From positions 1-29,312 of the IMG/VR virus record IMGVR_UViG_2778261593_000009: DNA of 29,312 bases. One strand, written 5' to 3'. Position 1 is the first letter of the stretch; each line of letters begins with the position of its first letter. Shown here in pieces: positions 1 through 11,209 of this stretch. The DNA comes from a virus (lineage: Duplodnaviria; Heunggongvirae; Uroviricota; Caudoviricetes). Below the pieces are notes generated by a model that was not told the DNA's origin, searched no databases, and saw only the letters and a program-made list of their open reading frames with translations. A program made the position numbers and the translations under genes.

Positions 1-54
1 GGTATCCGTTCTGCTGAAGTGTCATGGCGTTGATTTTACGGTGACTCTTCGACA

Positions 55-85
55 GTGAAAAGAAAAAAGGCCGCAGAGCGGCCAT
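55..85 (-). terminator. Rho-independent terminator downstream of the minus-strand gene 193-642
   Basis: GC hairpin GGCCGC-aga-GCGGCC (about 69-83) directly preceded on the + strand by an A-run, i.e. followed by a U-run on the - strand. Confidence 0.5.
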
Positions 86-192: not shown

Positions 193-642
193 TCAGCCAA
201 CAAATTTTGCAATGAAATACGTAGCCGCCGCTGTAAAAAGCGAAGTAAAGACGGCTATACACACGGGTATAATGATGCCACTCAACCGCCACTTCGTATT
301 ATCATCAACTTTGTCAAACCGCCGATTCATCTCATCCATAATCTTGTCAAAGCGTTTATCCATCGCTTCGGTAATCTCACCCTTCAGGCTGTTAATGTCT
401 GATTTGATCTGATCTTTCAGGTGAGCTGTATCAGATTTAAGCTCCCCTTTCAGATTCGCAATATCGCATTTAAGATCACCTTTCAGATGTGCTGTGTCTG
501 CTTTGAGCTCACCTTTCACCTCACCAACATCGGCTTTGGTTGAAAGGTTTGTAGTGCGTTCAGCAAGCGTCGCAAGGTCGTTTCTTGTTAGCGATAAATC
601 ACCTTCGAGTCGCTCAATTCGTCTTTCAAGTTTATCTGACAT
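193..642 (-). CDS. Coiled-coil protein with about six 11-residue tandem repeats (LKGELKxDxxx) and a C-terminal hydrophobic membrane anchor; function unknown
   Basis: Track ORF 193-753; start placed at internal ATG (MSDKLERRIE...) because it is immediately preceded by GGAGGTGG. Hendecad periodicity and hydrophobic C-terminus (IIIPVCIAVFTSLFTAAATYFIA) read from the translation. Confidence 0.65.
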   Translation of the reverse strand: MSDKLERRIERLEGDLSLTRNDLATLAERTTNLSTKADVGEVKGELKADTAHLKGDLKCDIANLKGELKSDTAHLKDQIKSDINSLKGEITEAMDKRFDKIMDEMNRRFDKVDDNTKWRLSGIIIPVCIAVFTSLFTAAATYFIAKFVG

Positions 643-753
643 TCCACCTCCACTATTACCGCCTCCTCCACTGAAAGATGGGCCATCATCAAAAGAGTTG
701 CTAATGCCATCACGAATGGGGGTTACGCCATGCCCGCTTTTAGCACACGCCAC

Positions 754-1143
754 TCAGATTCCCTCCCAATCTATATATCCTTTATCTCTTGCCCAACGAA
801 CAACTGTGTGAGCTGTATATGTGGATGTGAAGCCGCAATAAGAACATGACACTTCATACCGGAAATTGTAGATGCTAATGGGGCCGTTCTCCTTACGTAT
901 GGGAGTGACATATTCCCAATCATTTGAATCATCAAGTTCAGGATCAGTGCCGTGAACAACCGTATGTGGAACAAATAGATCTGGGCGTCCACACGAGAGA
1001 CAAGAGGTTTTAGCACCTCTATCTGTGAGAAATTGAATAAATAATTTGGGCGTAATTTTCTGCAAGACCTGCACATGCTCACGTTCCTTATCATTAAGAG
1101 GCCTGCCAAGATATAGAAAATCATCAAATTTAAGAGGCTTCAT
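754..1143 (-). CDS. Hypothetical protein with two CxxC motifs (putative zinc ribbon); function unknown
   Basis: Track ORF 754-1158; start placed at MKPLKFDD, preceded by GGAGAAG; CLSCG and CSYCG motifs; start overlaps the 3' end of int by about 14 nt, suggesting translational coupling. Confidence 0.55.
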   Translation of the reverse strand: MKPLKFDDFLYLGRPLNDKEREHVQVLQKITPKLFIQFLTDRGAKTSCLSCGRPDLFVPHTVVHGTDPELDDSNDWEYVTPIRKENGPISIYNFRYEVSCSYCGFTSTYTAHTVVRWARDKGYIDWEGI

Positions 1144-2122
1144 ATACGGCTTCTCCAAGAGGATTAAATTTCACCGCATCCTGCAAGTAATCCGGCGCAA
1201 GATGGGCATAAATCATCGTTGTCTGAATCTTTGCGTGCCCCAGAATTTTCTGGAGCGTCAGAATATTGCCGCCGTTCATCATGAAATGACTGGCGAAGGT
1301 GTGGCGCAGCGCATGAACAGCCTGGCCATCAGGGACATCAGGTGCGACCGTTTTGATGACATCGCGAACCAATGGATAATCCAGCGTCGGAAACACCAGT
1401 TTCCCGCCCCGTTTTTTGATCTTTTCAAACAGGCTTTCAGAAATAGGAACGGTACGGTTTTTGTTGTTCTTCGTTTTTGAAAAAGTGATTCGACAATGAA
1501 GAACACGGCGCTGCTCCAGTGCCGCTACCTCGCCCCATCGCGCCCCGGTCGACAGAAGGATTTCGACAGCCAGCCGTTCATCGGGATTTTCAGCCAGTGC
1601 ATCCAGCAACTGAACACATTCAGACTTACTCAGATATCCCATTTCGCGCTCGTTAACCTTCATTCCTTTAAGGCCTTGAACGGGGTTATCGTTAAGAAAA
1701 TGGCCGGATGAGATGAGTGCGGTAAACATCGCGCTTAACGCCCCAATCTCTCGATTTATGGTGCTGGGCTGTATCCCCTGCTCTATCCTGGACACACGTA
1801 GCTCGGTGAGCATCGTTGTATTAAGTTTATGCACGCACGGGTCATCCATTGCCTCACTCAAGCGCAGCAATTTAAGGCGCGTGTTATGCCCTGACTTCAT
1901 TAGCTGGCCGTGGTATTTCCACCACAAGTCAATAAGCACTGACAGAGGACGGCGATCAATAGAGTTTCCTTTCCACTCATTGTTATGCTGTTGCGCCAGC
2001 ACCCACCGCTCATATAAAACTGCATCCGATTTCGTTTTAAATTTTTTACGAATGCGTTTGCCTTTTCGCCCCTCCGGGCGCATGTCAAGAAGATACCCTC
2101 CCGGAATTGATTTTATGCTCAT
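1130..2122 (-). CDS. int: Phage integrase, tyrosine recombinase (P2 Int-like)
   Basis: C-terminal catalytic region ALRHTFASHF...LGHAKIQTTMIYAHL (R-H-R-Y family signature); N-terminus MSIKSIPGGYLLDMRPEGRKGKRIRKKF resembles my recollection of P2 Int, so start set at that Met rather than the upstream track start. Confidence 0.9.
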   Translation of the reverse strand: MSIKSIPGGYLLDMRPEGRKGKRIRKKFKTKSDAVLYERWVLAQQHNNEWKGNSIDRRPLSVLIDLWWKYHGQLMKSGHNTRLKLLRLSEAMDDPCVHKLNTTMLTELRVSRIEQGIQPSTINREIGALSAMFTALISSGHFLNDNPVQGLKGMKVNEREMGYLSKSECVQLLDALAENPDERLAVEILLSTGARWGEVAALEQRRVLHCRITFSKTKNNKNRTVPISESLFEKIKKRGGKLVFPTLDYPLVRDVIKTVAPDVPDGQAVHALRHTFASHFMMNGGNILTLQKILGHAKIQTTMIYAHLAPDYLQDAVKFNPLGEAVYEAS

Positions 2123-2171
2123 TCGTGAAACCCCAGCGTTACAAGACCACCATGCCCCCAGCGCTCCATGA

Positions 2172-2480
2172 TTAGCCGGGCTGTGTGCCAGTCTTGCGGG
2201 GTTTTTGAGAAGGCGATGTGCTTTTTGGCCCATCAGGGGAGAGAGACGGACTGATCTGCCCAGCAGCCTCATTTGTTTTTCCCGTCATAAGCCAATTCAT
2301 GTACTTAAAAAAGCGAGGGTGATTAACAATCTTGATAAGCACTTCGCCCCCTATGTTTTCAATCCGCCCCGTTTCATAACGACGCAAAGTGCCGATAGGC
2401 ACATCAATCAGGCCGCAAAATTCTTCGCGCGTTAAATCCTCTGATTCACGAATCACTCTAATTTTTTCACCGATAAGCAT
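2172..2480 (-). CDS. C: Immunity repressor, P2 C-like
   Basis: Position immediately upstream of int on the same strand; HTH region and C-terminal FFKYMNWLMTGKTNEAAGQISPSL resembling recalled P2 C; start taken at MLIGEKIRVI (track ORF begins at an upstream alternative start). Confidence 0.7.
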   Translation of the reverse strand: MLIGEKIRVIRESEDLTREEFCGLIDVPIGTLRRYETGRIENIGGEVLIKIVNHPRFFKYMNWLMTGKTNEAAGQISPSLSPDGPKSTSPSQKPRKTGTQPG

Positions 2481-6160: not shown

Positions 6161-8983
6161 ATGACGGCAGAGCACATCAGGGACTGGCAACAACCGCGCC
6201 ACGCAGTGGGGCGTGAAGGAACGGGGATCCCCGCTCCTGAATCCGCGCTTTCCTCCTGGCTGGATGCCTACCGGGCAGAGAACGAGCGCCGCAAGGAAAT
6301 GGCTGATGCGGCGTTCTCCGCCACGCCGCTGGGCAACCTGATTAATAAAAGCCTGGACGCACAGGAAAAACAGGACAAAACCATCACACTGGCAGGAGAC
6401 GCCAGAAAACAGGCACGCGGCGCAGTGGATGAAGCCATGGCCTCGCTGCGCCTGCTGCCGTCCTATCTGCGCGATCCGCTTATTCGCCACCTCTCCTTCC
6501 TGCGCAAAAAACAGGAAGCCGATCGCCGGAAAGGCAAAAAGAGCTGGCAGGCGGAACGCTATGCACGCGGAACCCTGCGCAAAATATTCGAACGTCTGGA
6601 CCGCACCGATCACCGCTGGCTGACACCGGGTTATCGCTCCCTTGCCGGACGCGAACGCCTGGACGATTTGCTTTACCTGCCGCAGCTCAACAAACACCAG
6701 ATACAGACGCTGGCCACCATGACGGCGGCGATGTTCAGCAGCACCTTCGAAAAACTCTGCGATGGCTTTGGCGCGACCGATGGCGAGCTGACCATGGATG
6801 TAACGCTGAAGGCGTATCAGATGCTGGCCCGCATGGCGTTACACCTGCACGCCATGCCTCCACATTATGACGCACTGACAACAGACAAAGACCGGAGGAA
6901 CGAACCAGACACGGAGCTGCTGCCGGGCGCAATCCTTCGCCTGACCTGTGCGGAATGGTGGAAACGCAAACTGTGGCTGTTACGTTGCGAGTGGCGGGAA
7001 GAACAACTCCGCGCCGCCTGTCTGGTTTCCAGAAAAACATCACCCTATCTGAGCCAGGACGCGTTAAGCGAGTTTCGCGCACAGCGCGAGAAAACACGCG
7101 ATTTCCTGAAAAGTTTCATGCTGGAAAATGAAGACGGGTTCACGATTGATCTCGAGACGGTGTATTACGCGGGAGTAAGTAACCCGGTTCACCGTAAGGC
7201 AGAAATGATGGCCACCATGAAGGGACTGGAACTTCTGGCCGAAGCCCGTGGCGACAGAGCGGTGTTTCTGACTGTCACCTGCCCGTCAAAATACCACGCA
7301 ACAACGGAGAACGGTCATCCGAACCCCAAATGGAACGGGGCCACCATGCGCGACTCCAGCGATTACCTGGTTAACACATTTTTTGCGGCGGTCCGCAAAA
7401 AACTGAACCGCGACGGTCTGCGCTGGTATGGCATCCGCACGGTGGAGCCTCACCATGACGGCACTGTGCACTGGCATATGATGGTCTTTGCACATCCGGA
7501 CGAGATTGAAACCATCGTGTCCCACGTCTGCGATATTGCCATTCAGGAAGACCGCCACGAGCTGGGCGATGACATAACTCCGCGTTTTAAGGCGGAGTAC
7601 GTAGACGGCTCAAAAGGCACACCAACCAGCTACATCGCCACCTACATCGGAAAGAACCTGGACAGCCGCGCCGTGGATGGCATCGACCCGAAAACGGGCA
7701 AGCCACGCGTTGACCACGAAACCGGAAAATCAATGGCCGAGAGCGTGGAACGCGCCATCGGCTGGGCGCGCCTTCACCGGGTCCGCCAGTTCCAGTTCTT
7801 TGGCATTCCCTCCCGTCAGGTGTGGCGTGAACTCCGCCGCCTTGCCAGCCAGATGGCACGCAACCCGGAAGGCCCGCAACGGCTGAAGGATGACGCAATG
7901 GATGCGGTTCTTGCTGCCGCTGATGCCGGGTGTTTTGCCACCTACATTGAAAAACAGGGTGGCGTACTTGTTCCGCGCAAGGACTACCTGATTCGCACAG
8001 CCTACGACCTCGCAGATGAGCTGAACGATTACGGCGAACAGAGTGTACAGATTTACGGGATCTGGTCGCCACTCATCGGGGAATCCTCCCGTGTGTGCAC
8101 GCACCCGGATAACTGGAAGCTGGTAAGACGTAAACCGGAAGCGGAAGACAGCACCCACGAAAATGGTTTTGACCTTCAGGGCGGCCCTGCCGCCCCTTGG
8201 ACTCGTGGCAATAACTGTCCCCGTGTACAGGAAACAGGCAACAGCGGGACAGAACTGTCGGAAGAGCAACCAACACCGTGGCCGCAGATCCCTGACAGCG
8301 TTGATGTGGATGAATGGATGCGCTCACTGAAACGGCACGAACGCCGGGCGCTGATGCGTTCGCTGCGTGACAAACAGGCAAAAAACAGCAGTGATGAAAT
8401 GCAGAGCTGGACACAGAGCCGCAAACAGCCGCGACCTTTGCCTGATAACCACGAGTTACTCGCTAAAGAATGGCGGGAGTCTGCTGAATCTCTCGGCCTG
8501 CATATTGGTGAACAGCAGATGCAGCACCTGTTACGGGGCGGCAGTCTGTACGTTGACGGCAGCATCATTGCACCGCAGGGATTTGAAATTGTACGCAAAC
8601 CGGATACCCGCCCGGACAGCCGAATCACGCAGCTCTGGCAGCGCCTGAGCCGTAATCACGGCGTAAGCAGCACGGAGATCCGCCATAACCCGGTCGCCAG
8701 TTATCTGGAACAGCTAGGGGCATCAGACCCCGAAGCCGCCGCACGCCTGGCATCCACACTTCAGCAAGACCAGAACACCATGAAAACACCCGTTACCGTG
8801 CTTTCTGACATGCTGCGCGCCATCCGTGACGCAGAGCACGCACAGAGAATCAGTGAAACCACTGAACGCGCCCGCCGCAAAGCAAACCTGCTGCGGGGTG
8901 GCCTGACCAGTGGAAACAAAAAACAGACAGAAACGGGATTCACAAATCCCGTAAATGAGCAAAAAACGCGCCGCGATATATGA
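6161..8983 (+). CDS. A: Rolling-circle replication initiation endonuclease, P2 gpA-like
   Basis: HUH-type motif VEPHHDGTVHWHMMVF and paired tyrosines YIATYIGKNLD, matching the conserved motifs of P2 A protein; 940 aa. Confidence 0.85.
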   Translation: MTAEHIRDWQQPRHAVGREGTGIPAPESALSSWLDAYRAENERRKEMADAAFSATPLGNLINKSLDAQEKQDKTITLAGDARKQARGAVDEAMASLRLLPSYLRDPLIRHLSFLRKKQEADRRKGKKSWQAERYARGTLRKIFERLDRTDHRWLTPGYRSLAGRERLDDLLYLPQLNKHQIQTLATMTAAMFSSTFEKLCDGFGATDGELTMDVTLKAYQMLARMALHLHAMPPHYDALTTDKDRRNEPDTELLPGAILRLTCAEWWKRKLWLLRCEWREEQLRAACLVSRKTSPYLSQDALSEFRAQREKTRDFLKSFMLENEDGFTIDLETVYYAGVSNPVHRKAEMMATMKGLELLAEARGDRAVFLTVTCPSKYHATTENGHPNPKWNGATMRDSSDYLVNTFFAAVRKKLNRDGLRWYGIRTVEPHHDGTVHWHMMVFAHPDEIETIVSHVCDIAIQEDRHELGDDITPRFKAEYVDGSKGTPTSYIATYIGKNLDSRAVDGIDPKTGKPRVDHETGKSMAESVERAIGWARLHRVRQFQFFGIPSRQVWRELRRLASQMARNPEGPQRLKDDAMDAVLAAADAGCFATYIEKQGGVLVPRKDYLIRTAYDLADELNDYGEQSVQIYGIWSPLIGESSRVCTHPDNWKLVRRKPEAEDSTHENGFDLQGGPAAPWTRGNNCPRVQETGNSGTELSEEQPTPWPQIPDSVDVDEWMRSLKRHERRALMRSLRDKQAKNSSDEMQSWTQSRKQPRPLPDNHELLAKEWRESAESLGLHIGEQQMQHLLRGGSLYVDGSIIAPQGFEIVRKPDTRPDSRITQLWQRLSRNHGVSSTEIRHNPVASYLEQLGASDPEAAARLASTLQQDQNTMKTPVTVLSDMLRAIRDAEHAQRISETTERARRKANLLRGGLTSGNKKQTETGFTNPVNEQKTRRDI

Positions 8984-9058: not shown

Positions 9059-10018
9059 ATGAAAATTTGTATCGACGACGGCTCCACCAACATCAAGCTG
9101 GCATGGACTGAGAACGGCGAACGCCGCAACGCCATCAGCCCGAACAGCTTCAAGTCGGAATGGTCAGCGCCGTTCGGTGGCACGCAGCCCGCGAACTACA
9201 TGCTTGATGGCGTGCGCTATGGTTTTGATCCGGTCAGCGATCGCTTTGTCCAGACGACCGACACGCAATACCAGTACAGCGATGTGAATGTTATTGCCAT
9301 TCATCATGCGCTGGTCAAATCAGGCATCACACCACAGGAGGTGGATGTGGTTGTCACCCTGCCACTGAGCGAGTATTTCGATACAAACGCACAGCCGGAC
9401 ATGGCCAACATCAGCCGCAAAAAAGCGAACGTTATGCGCCCGGTGGAGTACCAGAACGGCGAAGCATTCACTATCCGTAACGTGCGGGTTATGCCTGAAT
9501 CCATTCCGGCAGGCTTTAAAGCACTGGCTGACATGAGTCCGTTTGAATCCCTGCTGATTGTGGATTTGGGCGGAACCACGCTGGATGTGGCAAAGGTTCA
9601 GGGGCAACTGGCAGGTATCAGCCAGGTGTTTTGCGATCCACACGTAGGCGTTTCTCTGATGGCCGATGCCGTGCTGTCGGTGATGGCCACCAACGGTATG
9701 CGTACCAGTCACCACATCGCTAATACCATTATCGAACATCGCCACGATGAAGCCTGGCTGCGCCAGCACATCCACAATGACGCGCATTACGCCAGCCTGA
9801 TGGCAGTTATTCGTGAAAAGGAGGAAACACTGAAACAACGCGTGATCCGCGCGCTGGCGGGTTTTTCGGGTTACGGGCGGGTGATGGTTGTCGGTGGAGG
9901 GGCGGAGATTGTGGCACCCGCCATCCGCGAAGCCTGCGGAGTTAATGCGACTTTCATCGCGGACGGGGTGCCACAGTTTGCTCTGGTTAATGGGCTGTAC
10001 GCAATGGACAAGGAGTAA
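9059..10018 (+). CDS. parM: Actin-like segregation ATPase ParM (StbA)
   Basis: N-terminus MKICIDDGSTNIKLAW and motifs DVNVIAIHHAL, VMPESIPAG, LIVDLGGTTLD, FSGYGRVMVVGGGAE, LVNGLY closely parallel plasmid R1 ParM as I recall it. Confidence 0.85.
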   Translation: MKICIDDGSTNIKLAWTENGERRNAISPNSFKSEWSAPFGGTQPANYMLDGVRYGFDPVSDRFVQTTDTQYQYSDVNVIAIHHALVKSGITPQEVDVVVTLPLSEYFDTNAQPDMANISRKKANVMRPVEYQNGEAFTIRNVRVMPESIPAGFKALADMSPFESLLIVDLGGTTLDVAKVQGQLAGISQVFCDPHVGVSLMADAVLSVMATNGMRTSHHIANTIIEHRHDEAWLRQHIHNDAHYASLMAVIREKEETLKQRVIRALAGFSGYGRVMVVGGGAEIVAPAIREACGVNATFIADGVPQFALVNGLYAMDKE

Positions 10019-10334: not shown

Positions 10335-10460
10335 CACAACATCAGGGCATATTTGCCCTGATATCCCCTCTCAAACAAGGCAGCAACAAACTGCCCGTTG
10401 AATAACACAAATTACATGTTATGATTAACTCATAAGTAACCCCCGTTTGTGTCTTACGTT

Positions 10461-10835
10461 ATGAATGATCAAGATTATGGGCTTGATACCCTATTGGATA
10501 TGCACGGCTACCAGCACCACATGGATAATGGCTACTGGTGGAAGATTGAAGCCTACCGGGTCAGCCCAAGCCCATTCAGACCCCACGGGATACGTTACAA
10601 TCTGACATTACATGACCAGTACAATTCCCGCATATTTGGGATGGATAATGCTCATGGAATAAAACCACCGAAGAAGGGCCGTTTCACAGGGAAATTAACT
10701 GTTTACGACCATGTGCACCGCACAACATTTGACAAAGGCTATCCCTATGAATTCATTTCTGCGGAACAGCTTTTATCTGACTTCTTCGATAACGTAGATC
10801 GCATCATTGACGAAATCACAAGGGGGAATCAATGA
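10461..10835 (+). CDS. Hypothetical protein, first gene of a coupled two-gene module
   Basis: Track ORF starts at GTG 10449; first ATG at 10461 (MNDQDYGLD...); His/Tyr/Trp-rich; I recognise no family. Confidence 0.55.
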   Translation: MNDQDYGLDTLLDMHGYQHHMDNGYWWKIEAYRVSPSPFRPHGIRYNLTLHDQYNSRIFGMDNAHGIKPPKKGRFTGKLTVYDHVHRTTFDKGYPYEFISAEQLLSDFFDNVDRIIDEITRGNQ

Positions 10836-11209
10836 AAGCCCGTATCGGGATTATCCCTGAAAATATCCTCCGCCAGCGGCTACTGGATGTCGCCAGAGGA
10901 AAACGTAAACCACTGCCAGATGAACCAAAAGTATGGTTTTCTTCACTGCACGCTGTAGGGCAAGCTCTGAGTAACGAAAACATTGCTCTGTTACGTCTGA
11001 TGGATGAAGAAAAACCTCAAACAATGACAGAGTTGGCAGAAATGTCAGGCAGGAAACTGAGCAATCTTTCAGTAACCTTAAAAATGCTGAGCGGCTACGG
11101 TTTTGTCAGCCTGGAAAAGAAAGGCAATACCATTCTCCCGAAAGCATTATTCACCGATTTTGAAATCATCATTGATCCATCTGTCGGAACCACTCATCGG
11201 GCCGCCTGA
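10832..11209 (+). CDS. Putative winged-helix DNA-binding protein, second gene of the module
   Basis: ATGA overlap with the upstream gene; HTH-like segment MTELAEMSGRKLSNLSVTLKMLSGYGFVSLEK. Confidence 0.55.
   Translation: MKARIGIIPENILRQRLLDVARGKRKPLPDEPKVWFSSLHAVGQALSNENIALLRLMDEEKPQTMTELAEMSGRKLSNLSVTLKMLSGYGFVSLEKKGNTILPKALFTDFEIIIDPSVGTTHRAA

What the first reader, a model, noticed from the sequence alone, without database searches (positions are those of the whole stretch)
385..545. 33-bp tandem DNA repeats encoding the hendecad protein repeats
The coding sequence of gene 193-642 contains about five imperfect 33-bp direct repeats, seen on the + strand as units like GATCTTTCAGGTGAGCTGTATCAGATTTAAGCTC. 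Each encodes one 11-residue unit of the pattern LKGELKxDxxx. Such arrays can change length by slipped-strand or recombination events and 11-residue periodicity is unusual for a phage cargo protein.
Basis: seen in the sequence. Interest (0 to 1): 0.4.

Follow-up and report, generated by a model that had tools for sequence, protein, structure and literature searches.

The report
Variable hendecad stalk, prophage membrane protein
The 33-bp repeats are real and encode the 11-residue units of a coiled-coil stalk in a membrane-anchored prophage protein of the DUF1640/Bdr kind; the stalk gains and loses whole units between strains, which is typical of this large family whose bacterial function is still unknown.

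Summary
Confirmed, but ordinary in kind. On the minus strand, window 379-543 holds five in-register 33-bp units. One is a "neck" unit (STKADVGEVKG) and four are hLKxDxxxLKG units. A second pair of 33-bp units lies at 313-378. Lag-33 identity is 0.62, against 0.28±0.04 in codon shuffles.

Hydrophobic periodicity of the stalk peaks at 3.68 residues (11/3), with almost no power at 3.5. AlphaFold gives one long helix, broken exactly at the LSTKAD motif.

Close homologues (P2-like prophages of E. coli, a divergent Logan contig of unnamed host (L011), plus homologue proteins named from Salmonella and Citrobacter) have stalk segments of 25, 36, 47, 58, 69 or 80 residues. That is 1-6 units in exact 11-residue steps. 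Prophage ends that are at least 99% identical differ by ±66 bp inside the array.

The protein has a beta-layer neck, a hendecad stalk and a C-terminal membrane helix. That is the architecture of the DUF1640/CCDC90-like family. It also resembles the Borrelia prophage Bdr proteins, which have 11-residue repeats, variable copy number, an inner-membrane location and no known function. At least 694 clusters of relatives exist.

The gene probably starts at GTG 753 (186 aa), not ATG 642. It lies last in an int-orf129-gene string at attL. Its biological role remains inferred. This is a new member of a known kind.

The parts
193..753 (-). Probable full gene (186 aa): GTG start directly after the TGA of the upstream gene, stop TGA at 193-195.
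   Evidence: The ORF is open from 753. A GGGAGGG Shine-Dalgarno-like sequence lies 7 nt upstream of the GTG. The extended start abuts or overlaps the upstream gene's stop in three different locus types. Five of the six GVTPIR codons differ only at synonymous third positions between the window and L011, and there are no indels.
193..642 (-). Short form of the gene as read by the first stage and as annotated for most RefSeq homologues (149 aa, MSDK...KFVG).
   Evidence: RefSeq names the homologues 'DUF1640 domain-containing protein' or 'CCDC90 family protein'.
643..753 (-). N-terminal extension of 37 codons: a conserved GVTPIR motif and a GGGGNSGGG glycine linker. Its Gly codons also form the SD-like GGAGGTGGA sequence in front of ATG 642.
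   Evidence: AlphaFold2 pLDDT is below 50 and no secondary structure is predicted.
547..642 (-). Short N-terminal helix ('head', aa 1-32 of the short form) with roughly heptad spacing of L/I residues.
   Evidence: AlphaFold2 helix 38-70 of the 186-aa form. Periodicity peak at 3.60, not significant on its own.
529..546 (-). LSTKAD, a candidate beta-layer neck (aa 33-38).
   Evidence: It matches the motif [aliphatic]-A-T-K-[polar]-[DE] reported for DUF1640 at the start of the stalk (PMC4786415); the L004 allele reads LATKAD. The only break in the AlphaFold2 helix falls on S-T of this motif. In profile-to-PDB alignments TKAD aligns with the TK[AED][ED] of 7o92, 5apz and 6h9l.
379..543 (-). The array of the finding: five in-register 33-bp units, made of the neck unit STKADVGEVKG and four hLKxDxxxLKG hendecads.
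313..378 (-). Second pair of 33-bp units (EITEAMDKRFD, KIMDEMNRRFD), 70% identical to each other. One unit is absent in the other allele class.
208..279 (-). C-terminal hydrophobic helix (aa 122-145, GIIIPVCIAVFTSLFTAAATYFIA), the membrane anchor. Only KFVG follows it.
   Evidence: Kyte-Doolittle maximum of 2.17 at residue 122. AlphaFold2 helix 151-185. 96 of 121 relatives have a C-terminal hydrophobic segment.
754..1143 (-). Upstream partner gene (129 aa, phrog_4293, four invariant Cys in CxxC...CxxC). It overlaps the end of int by 14 nt and its stop abuts GTG 753.
1130..2272 (-). P2-type tyrosine integrase, first gene of the int-orf129-DUF1640 string.
   Evidence: Pfam Int_N and Phage_integrase. 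Same order in every related locus.
59..83 (-). Intrinsic-terminator-like hairpin GGCCGCTCTGCGGCC followed by a T-run. It lies in host DNA at the attL junction, 110 nt downstream of the gene.
   Evidence: Window 1-83 is 100% identical to prophage-free E. coli, including K-12 MG1655.

Best explanation
The repeats are the coding units of a coiled-coil stalk.

The gene lies at the left end of a P2-like prophage, between int and attL. It encodes a tail-anchored inner-membrane protein built as follows:
- a short N-terminal part: a disordered, Gly-linked peptide plus a 32-residue helix;
- an LSTKAD beta-layer 'neck';
- a stalk of 11-residue (hendecad) units with core residues at a/e/h (L, I/T, L);
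- a single C-terminal transmembrane helix.

Eleven residues make three helical turns. Adding or removing a whole 33-bp unit therefore lengthens or shortens the stalk by about 1.6 nm without changing the register or the orientation of what sits on top.

Unequal recombination or replication slippage between the similar units produces alleles with 1 to 6 units.

Shown here: the periodicity, the hendecad hydrophobic pattern, the helix prediction, the exact 11-residue length polymorphism, the recent ±66-bp events, the family resemblance, and the operon-like arrangement with int.

Inferred, not shown:
- parallel trimer formation, from the beta-layer motif and from trimeric relatives of known structure;
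- cytoplasmic orientation of the stalk, from the absence of a signal peptide and the four-residue tail after the anchor;
- expression in the lysogen together with int;
- the role, which I take to be a membrane-anchored scaffold or spacer that presents its N-terminal part at a set distance from the inner membrane, as proposed for MCUR1/CCDC90B-type proteins, acting as a lysogenic-conversion (cargo) function.
For: Repeats and register.

Hendecad rather than heptad: for stalk aa 39-118 the peak period is 3.68 with power 95.9, above the 99th percentile of shuffle maxima (85.7); power at 3.50 is 3.9.

AlphaFold2 (mean pLDDT 69): helix 38-70, break at 71-72 (S-T of LSTKAD), helix 73-146, break, helix 151-185.

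Length polymorphism: 25/36/47/58/69/80 aa. Unit indels occur in prophage ends that are at least 99% identical.

Family:
- PF07798 CCDC90-like is the best Pfam hit for the window protein (E = 3.7e-6) and matches 18 of 24 close homologues.
- RefSeq names homologues DUF1640 or CCDC90 family.
- tblastn against plasmids hits 64 Borrelia/Borreliella records out of 76; every Borrelia/Borreliella row among the 40 shown lies on 'Bdr family repetitive protein' genes (best E = 9e-6).
- B. miyamotoi Bdr carries VKSDLKSDIMS repeats plus a C-terminal anchor, and an Aliivibrio plasmid DUF1640 protein carries VRSELKQDIVN repeats.
- There are 694 representative clusters at E <= 1e-3. Of 121 small ones, 113 are 11-periodic, 58 have the neck motif and 96 have a C-terminal hydrophobic segment. 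Examples such as P0046 read ATKADISDLRG / ELKADIANLRG x n / TM.

Solved relatives by profile: 7o92 (E = 7.6e-4), 5apz (0.033), 6h9l (0.088). Two of the three (7o92, 6h9l) are deposited with three chains, and their TK-x-[DE] aligns with TKAD. Beta-layers are triangular three-chain structures, and DUF1640 is reported to carry the motif at the start of its stalk (PMC4786415).

Context: the order is int, then orf129, then this gene, with overlapping or abutting stop/start junctions and no promoter-like site on the minus strand between them. A terminator follows at 59-83. The order is the same in all related loci.
Against: The window protein scores below Pfam's gathering threshold for PF07798 (27.3 vs 33.5 bits). 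It matches only profile positions 77-157, the stalk, so it lacks the CCDC90-type head.

Similarity between repetitive coiled coils can be inflated by shared composition and periodicity. Homology to Bdr and to MCUR1-type proteins is therefore less certain than the E-values suggest.

Oligomeric state, topology and expression were not tested. The AlphaFold2 model is a monomer of moderate confidence, and Foldseek against the PDB found nothing.

Weak matches to apolipoprotein 11/22-mer repeats leave a membrane-surface amphipathic helix possible.

No functional evidence exists for any bacterial member. Bdr function has been unknown since the 1990s (PMC10016077).

In complete E. coli genomes the copy number is almost uniform: 35 of the 39 listed copies are 438 bp. 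The array is therefore not hypervariable.
Confidence: 0.65

Rival explanations
1. The 11/22-residue repeats form an amphipathic '3-11' helix that lies on the membrane surface, as in apolipoproteins, alpha-synuclein or LEA proteins, rather than a coiled-coil stalk. Unit number would then set the membrane area covered.
For: Pfam Apolipoprotein A1/A4/E is the second-best hit (E = 1.1e-4) and is found in 15 of 24 homologues and in the relatives scanned. The only PDB sequence hits of the single protein are ApoA-IV (E = 0.03). There is a 22-residue super-period (lag 66).
Against: All apolipoprotein scores are far below the family threshold (22-48 vs 90 bits). The hydrophobic face is narrow (L, I/T, L per 11 residues), and four of every 11 residues are charged (E/D, K, D, K). 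A beta-layer neck motif, specific to three-chain coiled coils, precedes the repeats. Profile hits are to beta-layer coiled-coil constructs, two of the three deposited with three chains.
Confidence: 0.1
2. It is a lysis-associated membrane protein of the XhlA, holin-accessory or spanin type. The two possible starts (GTG 753 and ATG 642) would give long and short isoforms, as in dual-start holins.
For: Weak hits to XhlA (PF10779, E = 0.012), to a PHROG 'hemolysin' family (phrog_1193, E = 0.0017) and to Rz-like spanin PHROGs (E = 0.02-0.1). The layout is a coiled coil plus a C-terminal TM helix. There are two in-frame starts, each with an SD-like sequence.
Against: All scores are below thresholds and cover only the generic coiled-coil/TM part. 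The gene sits after int at the prophage end, on the strand of the repressor-integrase genes, not among the late genes on the + strand (15-28 kb). The better PHROG matches are families of unknown function (phrog_9415, E = 1.1e-11).
Confidence: 0.07
3. Together with the upstream zinc-ribbon-like protein it forms a prophage-encoded anti-phage or superinfection-exclusion module, in which stalk length is tuned by repeat number.
For: It lies at a prophage end next to int, a typical cargo position. It forms a translationally coupled pair with a small four-Cys protein in most loci. The gene neighbourhood is variable: a different upstream gene in L003 and none annotated in L002. Alleles are length-polymorphic.
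Against: There is no specific PADLOC match. The hits are weak and fall on the coiled-coil parts of ZorA, LmuB and LeoBC (E >= 1.5e-4), and the partner has none. The partner has no informative fold match. The DUF1640 gene persists where the partner is replaced or not annotated, so the pair is not obligatory. No experimental data exist.
Confidence: 0.12
4. The periodicity is a chance or compositional effect of a lysine/leucine-rich coiled coil, and the length differences among homologues are assembly errors.
For: Repetitive regions can be mis-assembled. The repeat finder found no family.
Against: Lag-33 identity of 0.62 exceeds every one of 5000 codon-preserving shuffles (maximum 0.42). TRF score is 112. 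Length classes recur on many independent contigs and in complete genomes: P0018 on 10 contigs and P0005 on 150 contigs, and the 405-bp allele in a complete chromosome. The arrays are 200 bp or shorter and imperfect, which makes them easy to assemble.
Confidence: 0.01

Closest known systems
DUF1640 / CCDC90-like family (Pfam PF07798; human MCUR1 and CCDC90B, yeast Put6/Put7, many prokaryotic members). From my own recollection, Adlakha et al. 2019 (Structure 27:464, not held in the library) describe these as trimeric 'head-neck-stalk-anchor' membrane proteins.
   Same: It is the best Pfam match and the RefSeq name of homologues. The beta-layer motif at the start of the stalk is as reported for DUF1640 (PMC4786415). 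It has a coiled-coil stalk and a C-terminal TM anchor. Relatives that pass the Pfam threshold (P0054 at 49.3 bits, P0087 at 40.4 bits) have the same ATKxD neck, ELKxDIAxLR(G/T/A) hendecads and TM helix.
   Different: The window protein is below the gathering score and matches only the stalk part of the profile. It has no CCDC90-type head. Instead it has a 32-residue helix preceded by a probable disordered Gly-linked peptide. It is prophage-borne. The eukaryotic members act as mitochondrial inner-membrane scaffolds (PMC7519068; bioRxiv 10.1101/2025.10.14.682030), a role that cannot be transferred directly.
Bdr (Borrelia direct repeat) proteins of cp32 prophages and linear plasmids
   Same: Sequence hits from the window protein go to bdr genes, and the repeat motif is nearly the same (VKSDLKSDIMS vs LKGELKSDTAH). 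Both have a C-terminal hydrophobic anchor. Both show repeat-number differences between strains: bdrT has about 9 repeats in one strain and about 6 in an otherwise 99.4% identical gene of another (PMC3303823). Bdr proteins are inner-membrane associated and counted among prophage 'lysogenic conversion' genes of unknown function (PMC3303823, PMC10016077, PMC2525819).
   Different: Only 26-35% identity, concentrated in the repeats. The Bdr N-terminal domain model (NCBIfam NF040499) does not match the window protein. The B. miyamotoi and B. burgdorferi Bdr proteins examined lack a clear [aliphatic]-A-T-K-x-[DE] neck. Bdr genes form large paralogous families within a cell, whereas this gene is single-copy in a P2-like prophage and present in 39 of 5426 complete E. 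coli genomes.
Beta-layer coiled coils of known structure (Tcar0761 constructs 5apz/5apt, 7o92/7oah, and 6h9l, which by my recollection is the archaeal family member Kcr-0859)
   Same: The profile of the window protein and its homologues finds these as its top three PDB sequences, with TKAD aligned on their TK[AED][ED] motifs. 6h9l also has 11-residue units (ATKEDIEALRK).
   Different: E-values are marginal (7.6e-4 to 0.09). In Tcar0761 the motif recurs every 9 residues and forms repeated beta-layers. Here Thr is replaced by Leu/Ile in the later units, and AlphaFold2 predicts a continuous helix there.
DUF1640 proteins of other phages and plasmids (Liberibacter phages SC1/SC2/FP2, a Klebsiella phage record, an Aliivibrio fischeri conjugative plasmid)
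   Same: tblastn hits at 32-41% identity and the same repeat type. They are mobile-element cargo.
   Different: Different elements and gene neighbourhoods. None has a known function.

Membership tests
DUF1640 / CCDC90-like (PF07798) | Pfam HMM score at or above the gathering threshold (33.5 bits) | tested here: not met
   27.3 bits, E = 3.7e-6, matching profile positions 77-157 only. 18 of 24 close homologues match at E <= 1e-3, best 6.2e-8. More distant relatives P0054 (49.3 bits) and P0087 (40.4 bits) pass.
DUF1640 / CCDC90-like (PF07798) | Beta-layer neck motif [aliphatic]-A-T-K-[polar]-[DE] at the start of the stalk | tested here: met
   LSTKAD at aa 33-38; LATKAD in the L004/L008 alleles. 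The motif definition is from PMC4786415. The AlphaFold2 helix break falls at S-T. This is a match by sequence and monomer model only.
DUF1640 / CCDC90-like (PF07798) | Coiled-coil stalk followed by a C-terminal transmembrane anchor | tested here: met
   Hendecad periodicity of 3.68. Helices 73-146 and 151-185. Hydrophobic segment at aa 122-145.
DUF1640 / CCDC90-like (PF07798) | CCDC90-type N-terminal head domain | tested here: not met
   Profile positions 1-76 are unmatched. The N-terminal part is one 32-residue helix plus a disordered extension.
DUF1640 / CCDC90-like (PF07798) | Parallel trimer | not testable with these tools
   Only monomer prediction is available. Inferred from the beta-layer motif and from PDB relatives, two of the top three deposited with three chains.
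Bdr family (Borrelia) | Detectable sequence similarity to Bdr proteins | tested here: inconclusive
   tblastn hit 64 Borrelia/Borreliella plasmid records; every such row among the 40 shown is on a bdr gene, best E = 9e-6 at 34% identity over 66% of the query. The similarity lies mostly in the repeats, so convergence of repetitive coiled coils cannot be excluded.
Bdr family (Borrelia) | Central tandem repeats of about 11 residues with copy number varying between strains | tested here: met
   Window and homologues: 1-6 units. B. miyamotoi Bdr has its best self-lag at 11. Bdr repeat-number variation is reported in PMC3303823.
Bdr family (Borrelia) | Conserved Bdr N-terminal domain (NCBIfam NF040499 and relatives) | tested here: not met
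   No hit for the window protein. Homologue P0021 gave only E = 0.13 (12.2 bits vs cut-off 40) on a repeat segment.
Bdr family (Borrelia) | C-terminal hydrophobic anchor and inner-membrane location | tested here: inconclusive
   The anchor is present in the sequence. Location was not tested. Bdr location is from the literature.
Apolipoprotein A1/A4/E 11/22-mer repeats (PF01442) | Pfam score at or above 90 bits | tested here: not met
   22.4 bits. ApoA-IV chains in the PDB match at E = 0.03 only.
XhlA haemolysin / phage lysis accessory (PF10779) | Pfam score at or above 34.7 bits and a position in a lysis cassette | tested here: not met
   16.2 bits. The gene lies between int and attL, not among the late genes.
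Known anti-phage defence systems (PADLOC-DB 2.0) | Specific match of the protein or its neighbour to a defence-system model | tested here: not met
   Only weak coiled-coil matches (ZorA, LmuB, LeoBC; E >= 1.5e-4). The neighbour has none.

The most novel reading that the evidence does not exclude
The P2-like prophage gene is a true enterobacterial counterpart of the Borrelia Bdr proteins and of the prokaryotic DUF1640 proteins. Its unit-number polymorphism would be functional: a membrane-anchored 'ruler' whose stalk length (about 1.6 nm per unit, 1-6 units) sets how far a short N-terminal bait peptide is held from the inner membrane. This could be part of a lysogen-expressed exclusion or defence function together with the coupled zinc-ribbon protein. 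If so, E. coli lysogens would be a tractable system for resolving the function of Bdr/DUF1640 proteins, which is still unknown.
Probability: 0.12. Interest if true: 0.6.

Novelty: new member of a known kind. Interest (0 to 1): 0.3.

Why it matters
Nothing here overturns current knowledge. The repeats are the normal building blocks of a widespread family of membrane-anchored coiled-coil proteins.

The case is useful in three modest ways.

First, it is a clean natural example of why hendecad stalks evolve by whole-unit indels. Only multiples of 33 bp are seen, although any multiple of 3 bp would keep the reading frame. Near-identical prophages show recent ±2-unit events.

Second, it ties an E. 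coli, Salmonella and Citrobacter P2-like prophage cargo gene to the Borrelia Bdr proteins and to the MCUR1/CCDC90B family. No function is known for the bacterial and phage members. A genetically tractable lysogen could be used to find one.

Third, it suggests that RefSeq-style annotation truncates the protein by 37 residues.

Tried and rejected
1. The repeat finder with exact 7-nt seeds found no direct-repeat family. This is a method limitation; TRF and autocorrelation both find the array.

2. Stop-codon readthrough fusing the upstream 129-aa protein to this one. The idea came from the two ORFs being in frame and separated only by TGA. I rejected it because in the L004/L008 loci the ORFs are in different frames, and in L003 a different upstream gene overlaps the start by 8 nt. 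In all cases the extended start codon sits at the upstream stop. That fits translational coupling at a genuine upstream start instead.

3. The 'VTPIR' motif shared by the N-terminal extension and the upstream protein, read as a partial duplication. The local alignment score is not significant (p about 0.09 by shuffling).

4. Foldseek of the AlphaFold2 model against the PDB found nothing (best E = 5), as expected for a single long helix. afdb50 was not available.

5. Single-sequence search of the PDB found only marginal ApoA-IV hits.

6. PADLOC found no specific defence-system match for the protein or its neighbour.

7. NCBIfam gave no family above cut-off.

8. The neighbour protein has only 7 homologue clusters, all hypothetical. 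Its AlphaFold2 model has pLDDT 65. Foldseek gave only insignificant zinc-ribbon-like hits such as aIF2-beta, Rpa12/Rpb9 and NrdR (E >= 0.75).

9. The primary Bdr papers and Adlakha et al. 2019 are not held in the library. What I say about them beyond the cited reviews rests on my own recollection.

10. The + strand ORFs overlapping the array (421-543 and 494-811) were dismissed as by-products of the repeat, but they were not searched against any database.
Full report
**1. The observation**

The window's left end carries a minus-strand ORF.

Tandem Repeats Finder reports one strong array in the whole 29-kb window. It lies at 414-518 with period 33, 3.2 copies, 73% matches, no indels and score 112.

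Autocorrelation of 380-560 gives identity 0.574 at lag 33 and 0.591 at lag 66. The maximum over all lags in 5000 shuffles was 0.466.

Lag 33 is a multiple of three, so I repeated the test with codon-preserving shuffles. For 379-543 the observed value is 0.621 (0.636 at lag 66), against a mean of 0.284, sd 0.041 and maximum 0.424.

Written in 33-nt register from ATG 642, the whole soluble part falls into 11-residue lines:
- STKADVGEVKG (511-543)
- ELKADTAHLKG (478-510)
- DLKCDIANLKG (445-477)
- ELKSDTAHLKD (412-444)
- QIKSDINSLKG (379-411)
- EITEAMDKRFD and KIMDEMNRRFD (313-378), a second repeat type

The four LK units are 58-79% identical in DNA. Alternate units are the closest, which gives the 66-bp super-period. 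The neck unit is 52-55% identical to the LK units. The two MDKRFD units are 70% identical to each other.

**2. What the repeats encode**

The hydrophobic power spectrum of stalk residues 39-118 peaks at 3.68 residues per turn, which is 11/3. Its power is 95.9, above the 99th percentile of shuffle maxima (85.7). Power at the heptad value of 3.50 is 3.9. The core positions are L, I/T and L at spacing 4-3-4, the a/e/h pattern of hendecads.

AlphaFold2 was run on the 186-aa form with 24 homologues (mean pLDDT 69). It gives:
- a disordered N-terminus (1-37);
- a helix at 38-70;
- a two-residue break exactly at S-T of LSTKAD;
- one continuous helix at 73-146 covering all the repeats;
- a short break;
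- a helix at 151-185 containing the hydrophobic segment GIIIPVCIAVFTSLFTAAATYFIA.

LSTKAD (LATKAD in another allele) fits the motif [aliphatic]-A-T-K-[polar]-[DE]. [quoted passage not shown] A beta-layer is a triangular three-chain structure in trimeric coiled coils (PMC4786415).

The neck unit is in register with the later units and similar to them (x-[T/L/I]-K-x-D-h-x-x-h-K-G). The array therefore looks like a series of one ancestral unit, in which Thr was replaced by Leu/Ile downstream. That last point is my inference.

**3. Copy-number variation**

The homologue search returned 38 clusters from E. coli, Salmonella and Citrobacter. Where both anchors are present, the segment from TKAD to AMDKR is 25, 36, 47, 58 (the window), 69 or 80 residues and nothing in between. 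That corresponds to 1 to 6 LK units.

A second 11-residue difference (KRFDKIMDEMNRRFDK vs KRFDK) separates two C-terminal allele classes.

The DNA shows recent events.
- L008 and L004 are 98.8-99.9% identical in several kb of flanks. They differ by 66 bp: L008 has three tandem copies of the GAGCTTAAAGCAGATATTGC(G/T)CATCTGAAAGGT unit where L004 has one; two are identical and the third differs by one base.
- L009 and L002 are 99.1-99.5% identical and differ by a clean 66-bp deletion of two units.

Only multiples of 33 bp occur, although any multiple of 3 bp would keep the frame. This is what is expected if recombination or slippage happens between units and if only whole hendecads (three helical turns) are tolerated.

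The array is not hypervariable. 39 of 5426 complete E. coli genomes carry the gene, and 35 of those 39 copies are 438 bp long.

**4. What family it belongs to**

- *Pfam and RefSeq.* The best Pfam match is PF07798 (CCDC90-like, formerly DUF1640) at E = 3.7e-6. The score of 27.3 bits is below the 33.5-bit threshold and covers only profile positions 77-157. 18 of 24 close homologues match it. RefSeq calls the homologues 'DUF1640 domain-containing protein' or 'CCDC90 family protein'.
- *Representative library.* An exhaustive search finds 694 clusters at E <= 1e-3. Of the 121 small ones among the top 150, 113 have their best self-similarity at lag 11, 22 or 33. 58 carry the neck motif and 96 have a C-terminal hydrophobic segment. 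Written out, they look just like the window protein. P0046, for example, reads ATKADISDLRG, EVKEDIANLRG, ELKADIANLRG and so on, then a TM helix. P0054 and P0087 also pass the Pfam threshold over the full profile.
- *Plasmids.* In the plasmid collection, 64 of 76 matching records are Borrelia/Borreliella, and every such row among the 40 shown is on a 'Bdr family repetitive protein' gene (best E = 9e-6).
- *Bdr and Aliivibrio sequences.* B. miyamotoi Bdr has VKSDLKSDIMS repeats and a C-terminal anchor. An Aliivibrio fischeri plasmid DUF1640 protein has VRSELKQDIVN repeats.
- *Phages.* Liberibacter phages and a Klebsiella phage record also encode relatives.
- *Solved structures.* A profile of the close homologues finds three PDB sequences first: 7o92 (E = 7.6e-4), 5apz (Tcar0761, E = 0.033) and 6h9l (E = 0.088). 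Two of them (7o92, 6h9l) are deposited with three chains. Their TK-x-[DE] aligns on TKAD.

*Literature on Bdr.* These proteins are encoded on cp32 prophages and other plasmids and are counted among 'lysogenic conversion' genes. They are inner-membrane associated. They differ in repeat number between strains: bdrT has about 9 repeats against about 6 in an otherwise 99.4% identical gene. They have no known function (PMC3303823, PMC10016077, PMC2525819).

*Literature on the eukaryotic members.* MCUR1, CCDC90B, Put6 and Put7 are matrix-facing inner-membrane coiled-coil scaffolds (PMC7519068; bioRxiv 10.1101/2025.10.14.682030).

From my own recollection of Adlakha et al. 2019 (not held in the library), the family is described as trimeric 'head-neck-stalk-anchor' proteins with several head types.

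The window protein has the neck, stalk and anchor but not the CCDC90-type head. It also lacks the Bdr N-terminal domain. I therefore file it as a member of the broad DUF1640/Bdr-like kind with a minimal head. I do not file it as a strict member by curated thresholds.

**5. Context and gene limits**

The window is a P2-like prophage. It encodes a C-type repressor, a Cox-like protein, an A-type nickase, portal, terminase, major head protein, tape measure and tail fibre.

Window 1-83 is 100% identical to prophage-free E. coli, including K-12. Related loci show btuC immediately to the left. The gene is therefore the last one before attL.

The order is int (1130-2272), a 129-aa gene (754-1143) and then this gene, all on the minus strand. 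int and the 129-aa gene overlap by 14 nt. The TGA of the 129-aa gene is followed directly by GTG 753, which opens an in-frame 37-codon extension of the ORF. No promoter-like site was found between them on that strand. A terminator-like hairpin in host DNA follows at 59-83.

The extension is very probably translated, for four reasons.
- It is open in five divergent variants.
- Its start codon sits at the upstream stop in three different configurations: TGA-GTG in frame, stop plus 1 nt plus ATG out of frame, and ATG overlapping a different upstream gene by 8 nt.
- A GGGAGGG sequence lies 7 nt upstream of GTG 753.
- Between the window and the 46%-identical L011 homologue there are no indels, and five of the six GVTPIR codons differ only at synonymous third positions.

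The out-of-frame configuration argues against stop-codon readthrough. The likely product is 186 aa: a disordered peptide with a conserved GVTPIR motif and a GGGGNSGGG linker in front of the helix. ATG 642 may still serve as a second start.

**6. Mechanism**

My best explanation is a tail-anchored inner-membrane protein whose cytoplasmic part is a parallel, probably trimeric, coiled coil. Its length is set by the number of 33-bp units at about 1.6 nm per unit (11 x about 0.15 nm, from standard helix geometry). Length changes by unequal recombination or slippage, which preserves the register.

Oligomer state, topology, expression in the lysogen and biological role are inferred, not shown. Because of its position and strand, I think it is a lysogen-expressed cargo protein acting as a membrane scaffold or spacer. 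No data support any specific activity.

Rivals:
- a membrane-surface amphipathic 11/22-mer helix (weak apolipoprotein matches);
- an XhlA- or spanin-like lysis accessory (weak hits, wrong genomic position);
- a defence or exclusion module with the zinc-ribbon neighbour (no PADLOC support).

**7. Verdict**

However, the feature is the normal architecture of a large known family, and repeat-number variation is already known for its Borrelia members.

It is a new member of a known kind and of modest interest. Its value lies in offering a tractable E. coli prophage representative of a family whose bacterial function is unknown, and in a probable 37-codon correction of the gene start.

Noticed in passing
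window 643-753 (-): The ORF continues in frame 37 codons upstream of ATG 642 to GTG 753, which directly follows the TGA of the upstream gene. The extension (GVTPIR motif plus a GGGGNSGGG linker) shows synonymous-only changes and no indels in a 46%-identical homologue. The annotated start is therefore probably too far downstream.
   Followed up: yes
window 754-1143 (-): The neighbour gene is 129 aa and matches phrog_4293 (unknown function). It has four invariant Cys (CLSCG...CSYCG), so it looks like a zinc ribbon. Only 7 homologue clusters exist, all hypothetical. It appears translationally coupled to both int and the DUF1640 gene. There was no informative fold match, and it is replaced by a different gene in some loci (L003).
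   Followed up: partly
window 1-83: This stretch is host chromosome, 100% identical to prophage-free E. coli including K-12, in the intergenic region upstream of btuC. The attL junction lies at about 83, inside or next to a GC-rich terminator hairpin (69-83 plus a T-run) that would also terminate the prophage int-orf-DUF1640 transcript.
   Followed up: partly
window 9059-10018 (+): A full-length ParM-type actin-like plasmid segregation protein (Pfam StbA_N 274 bits and ParM C-terminal 230 bits) lies between the A-type replication gene and the portal gene. An integrating P2-like prophage would not be expected to need a partition system.
   Followed up: no
window 10832-11209 (+): A small winged-helix protein (Pfam HVO_A0114, 57.8 bits) with weak PADLOC matches to CasR/CARF-associated regulators (E = 5e-5). 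It sits in the same variable region upstream of the portal gene. The adjacent 128-aa ORF (10449-10835) has no match.
   Followed up: no
P0039, P0041, P0044, P0047 (representative-library hits): Four very large proteins (1723-3006 aa) also match the window protein. Three of them (P0039, P0041, P0044) show 22/25-residue repeats such as LRGEIDANLATARNDLQANVTI or LRGDLQSNVTTLRGEMASNT, and they match through those repeats. They may be fibre-like proteins using a related repeat.
   Followed up: no
window 6161-8983 (+): The P2 A-type 'nicking at origin' replication protein is 940 aa here and matches phrog_91 end to end. Whether this is unusually long was not checked.
   Followed up: no
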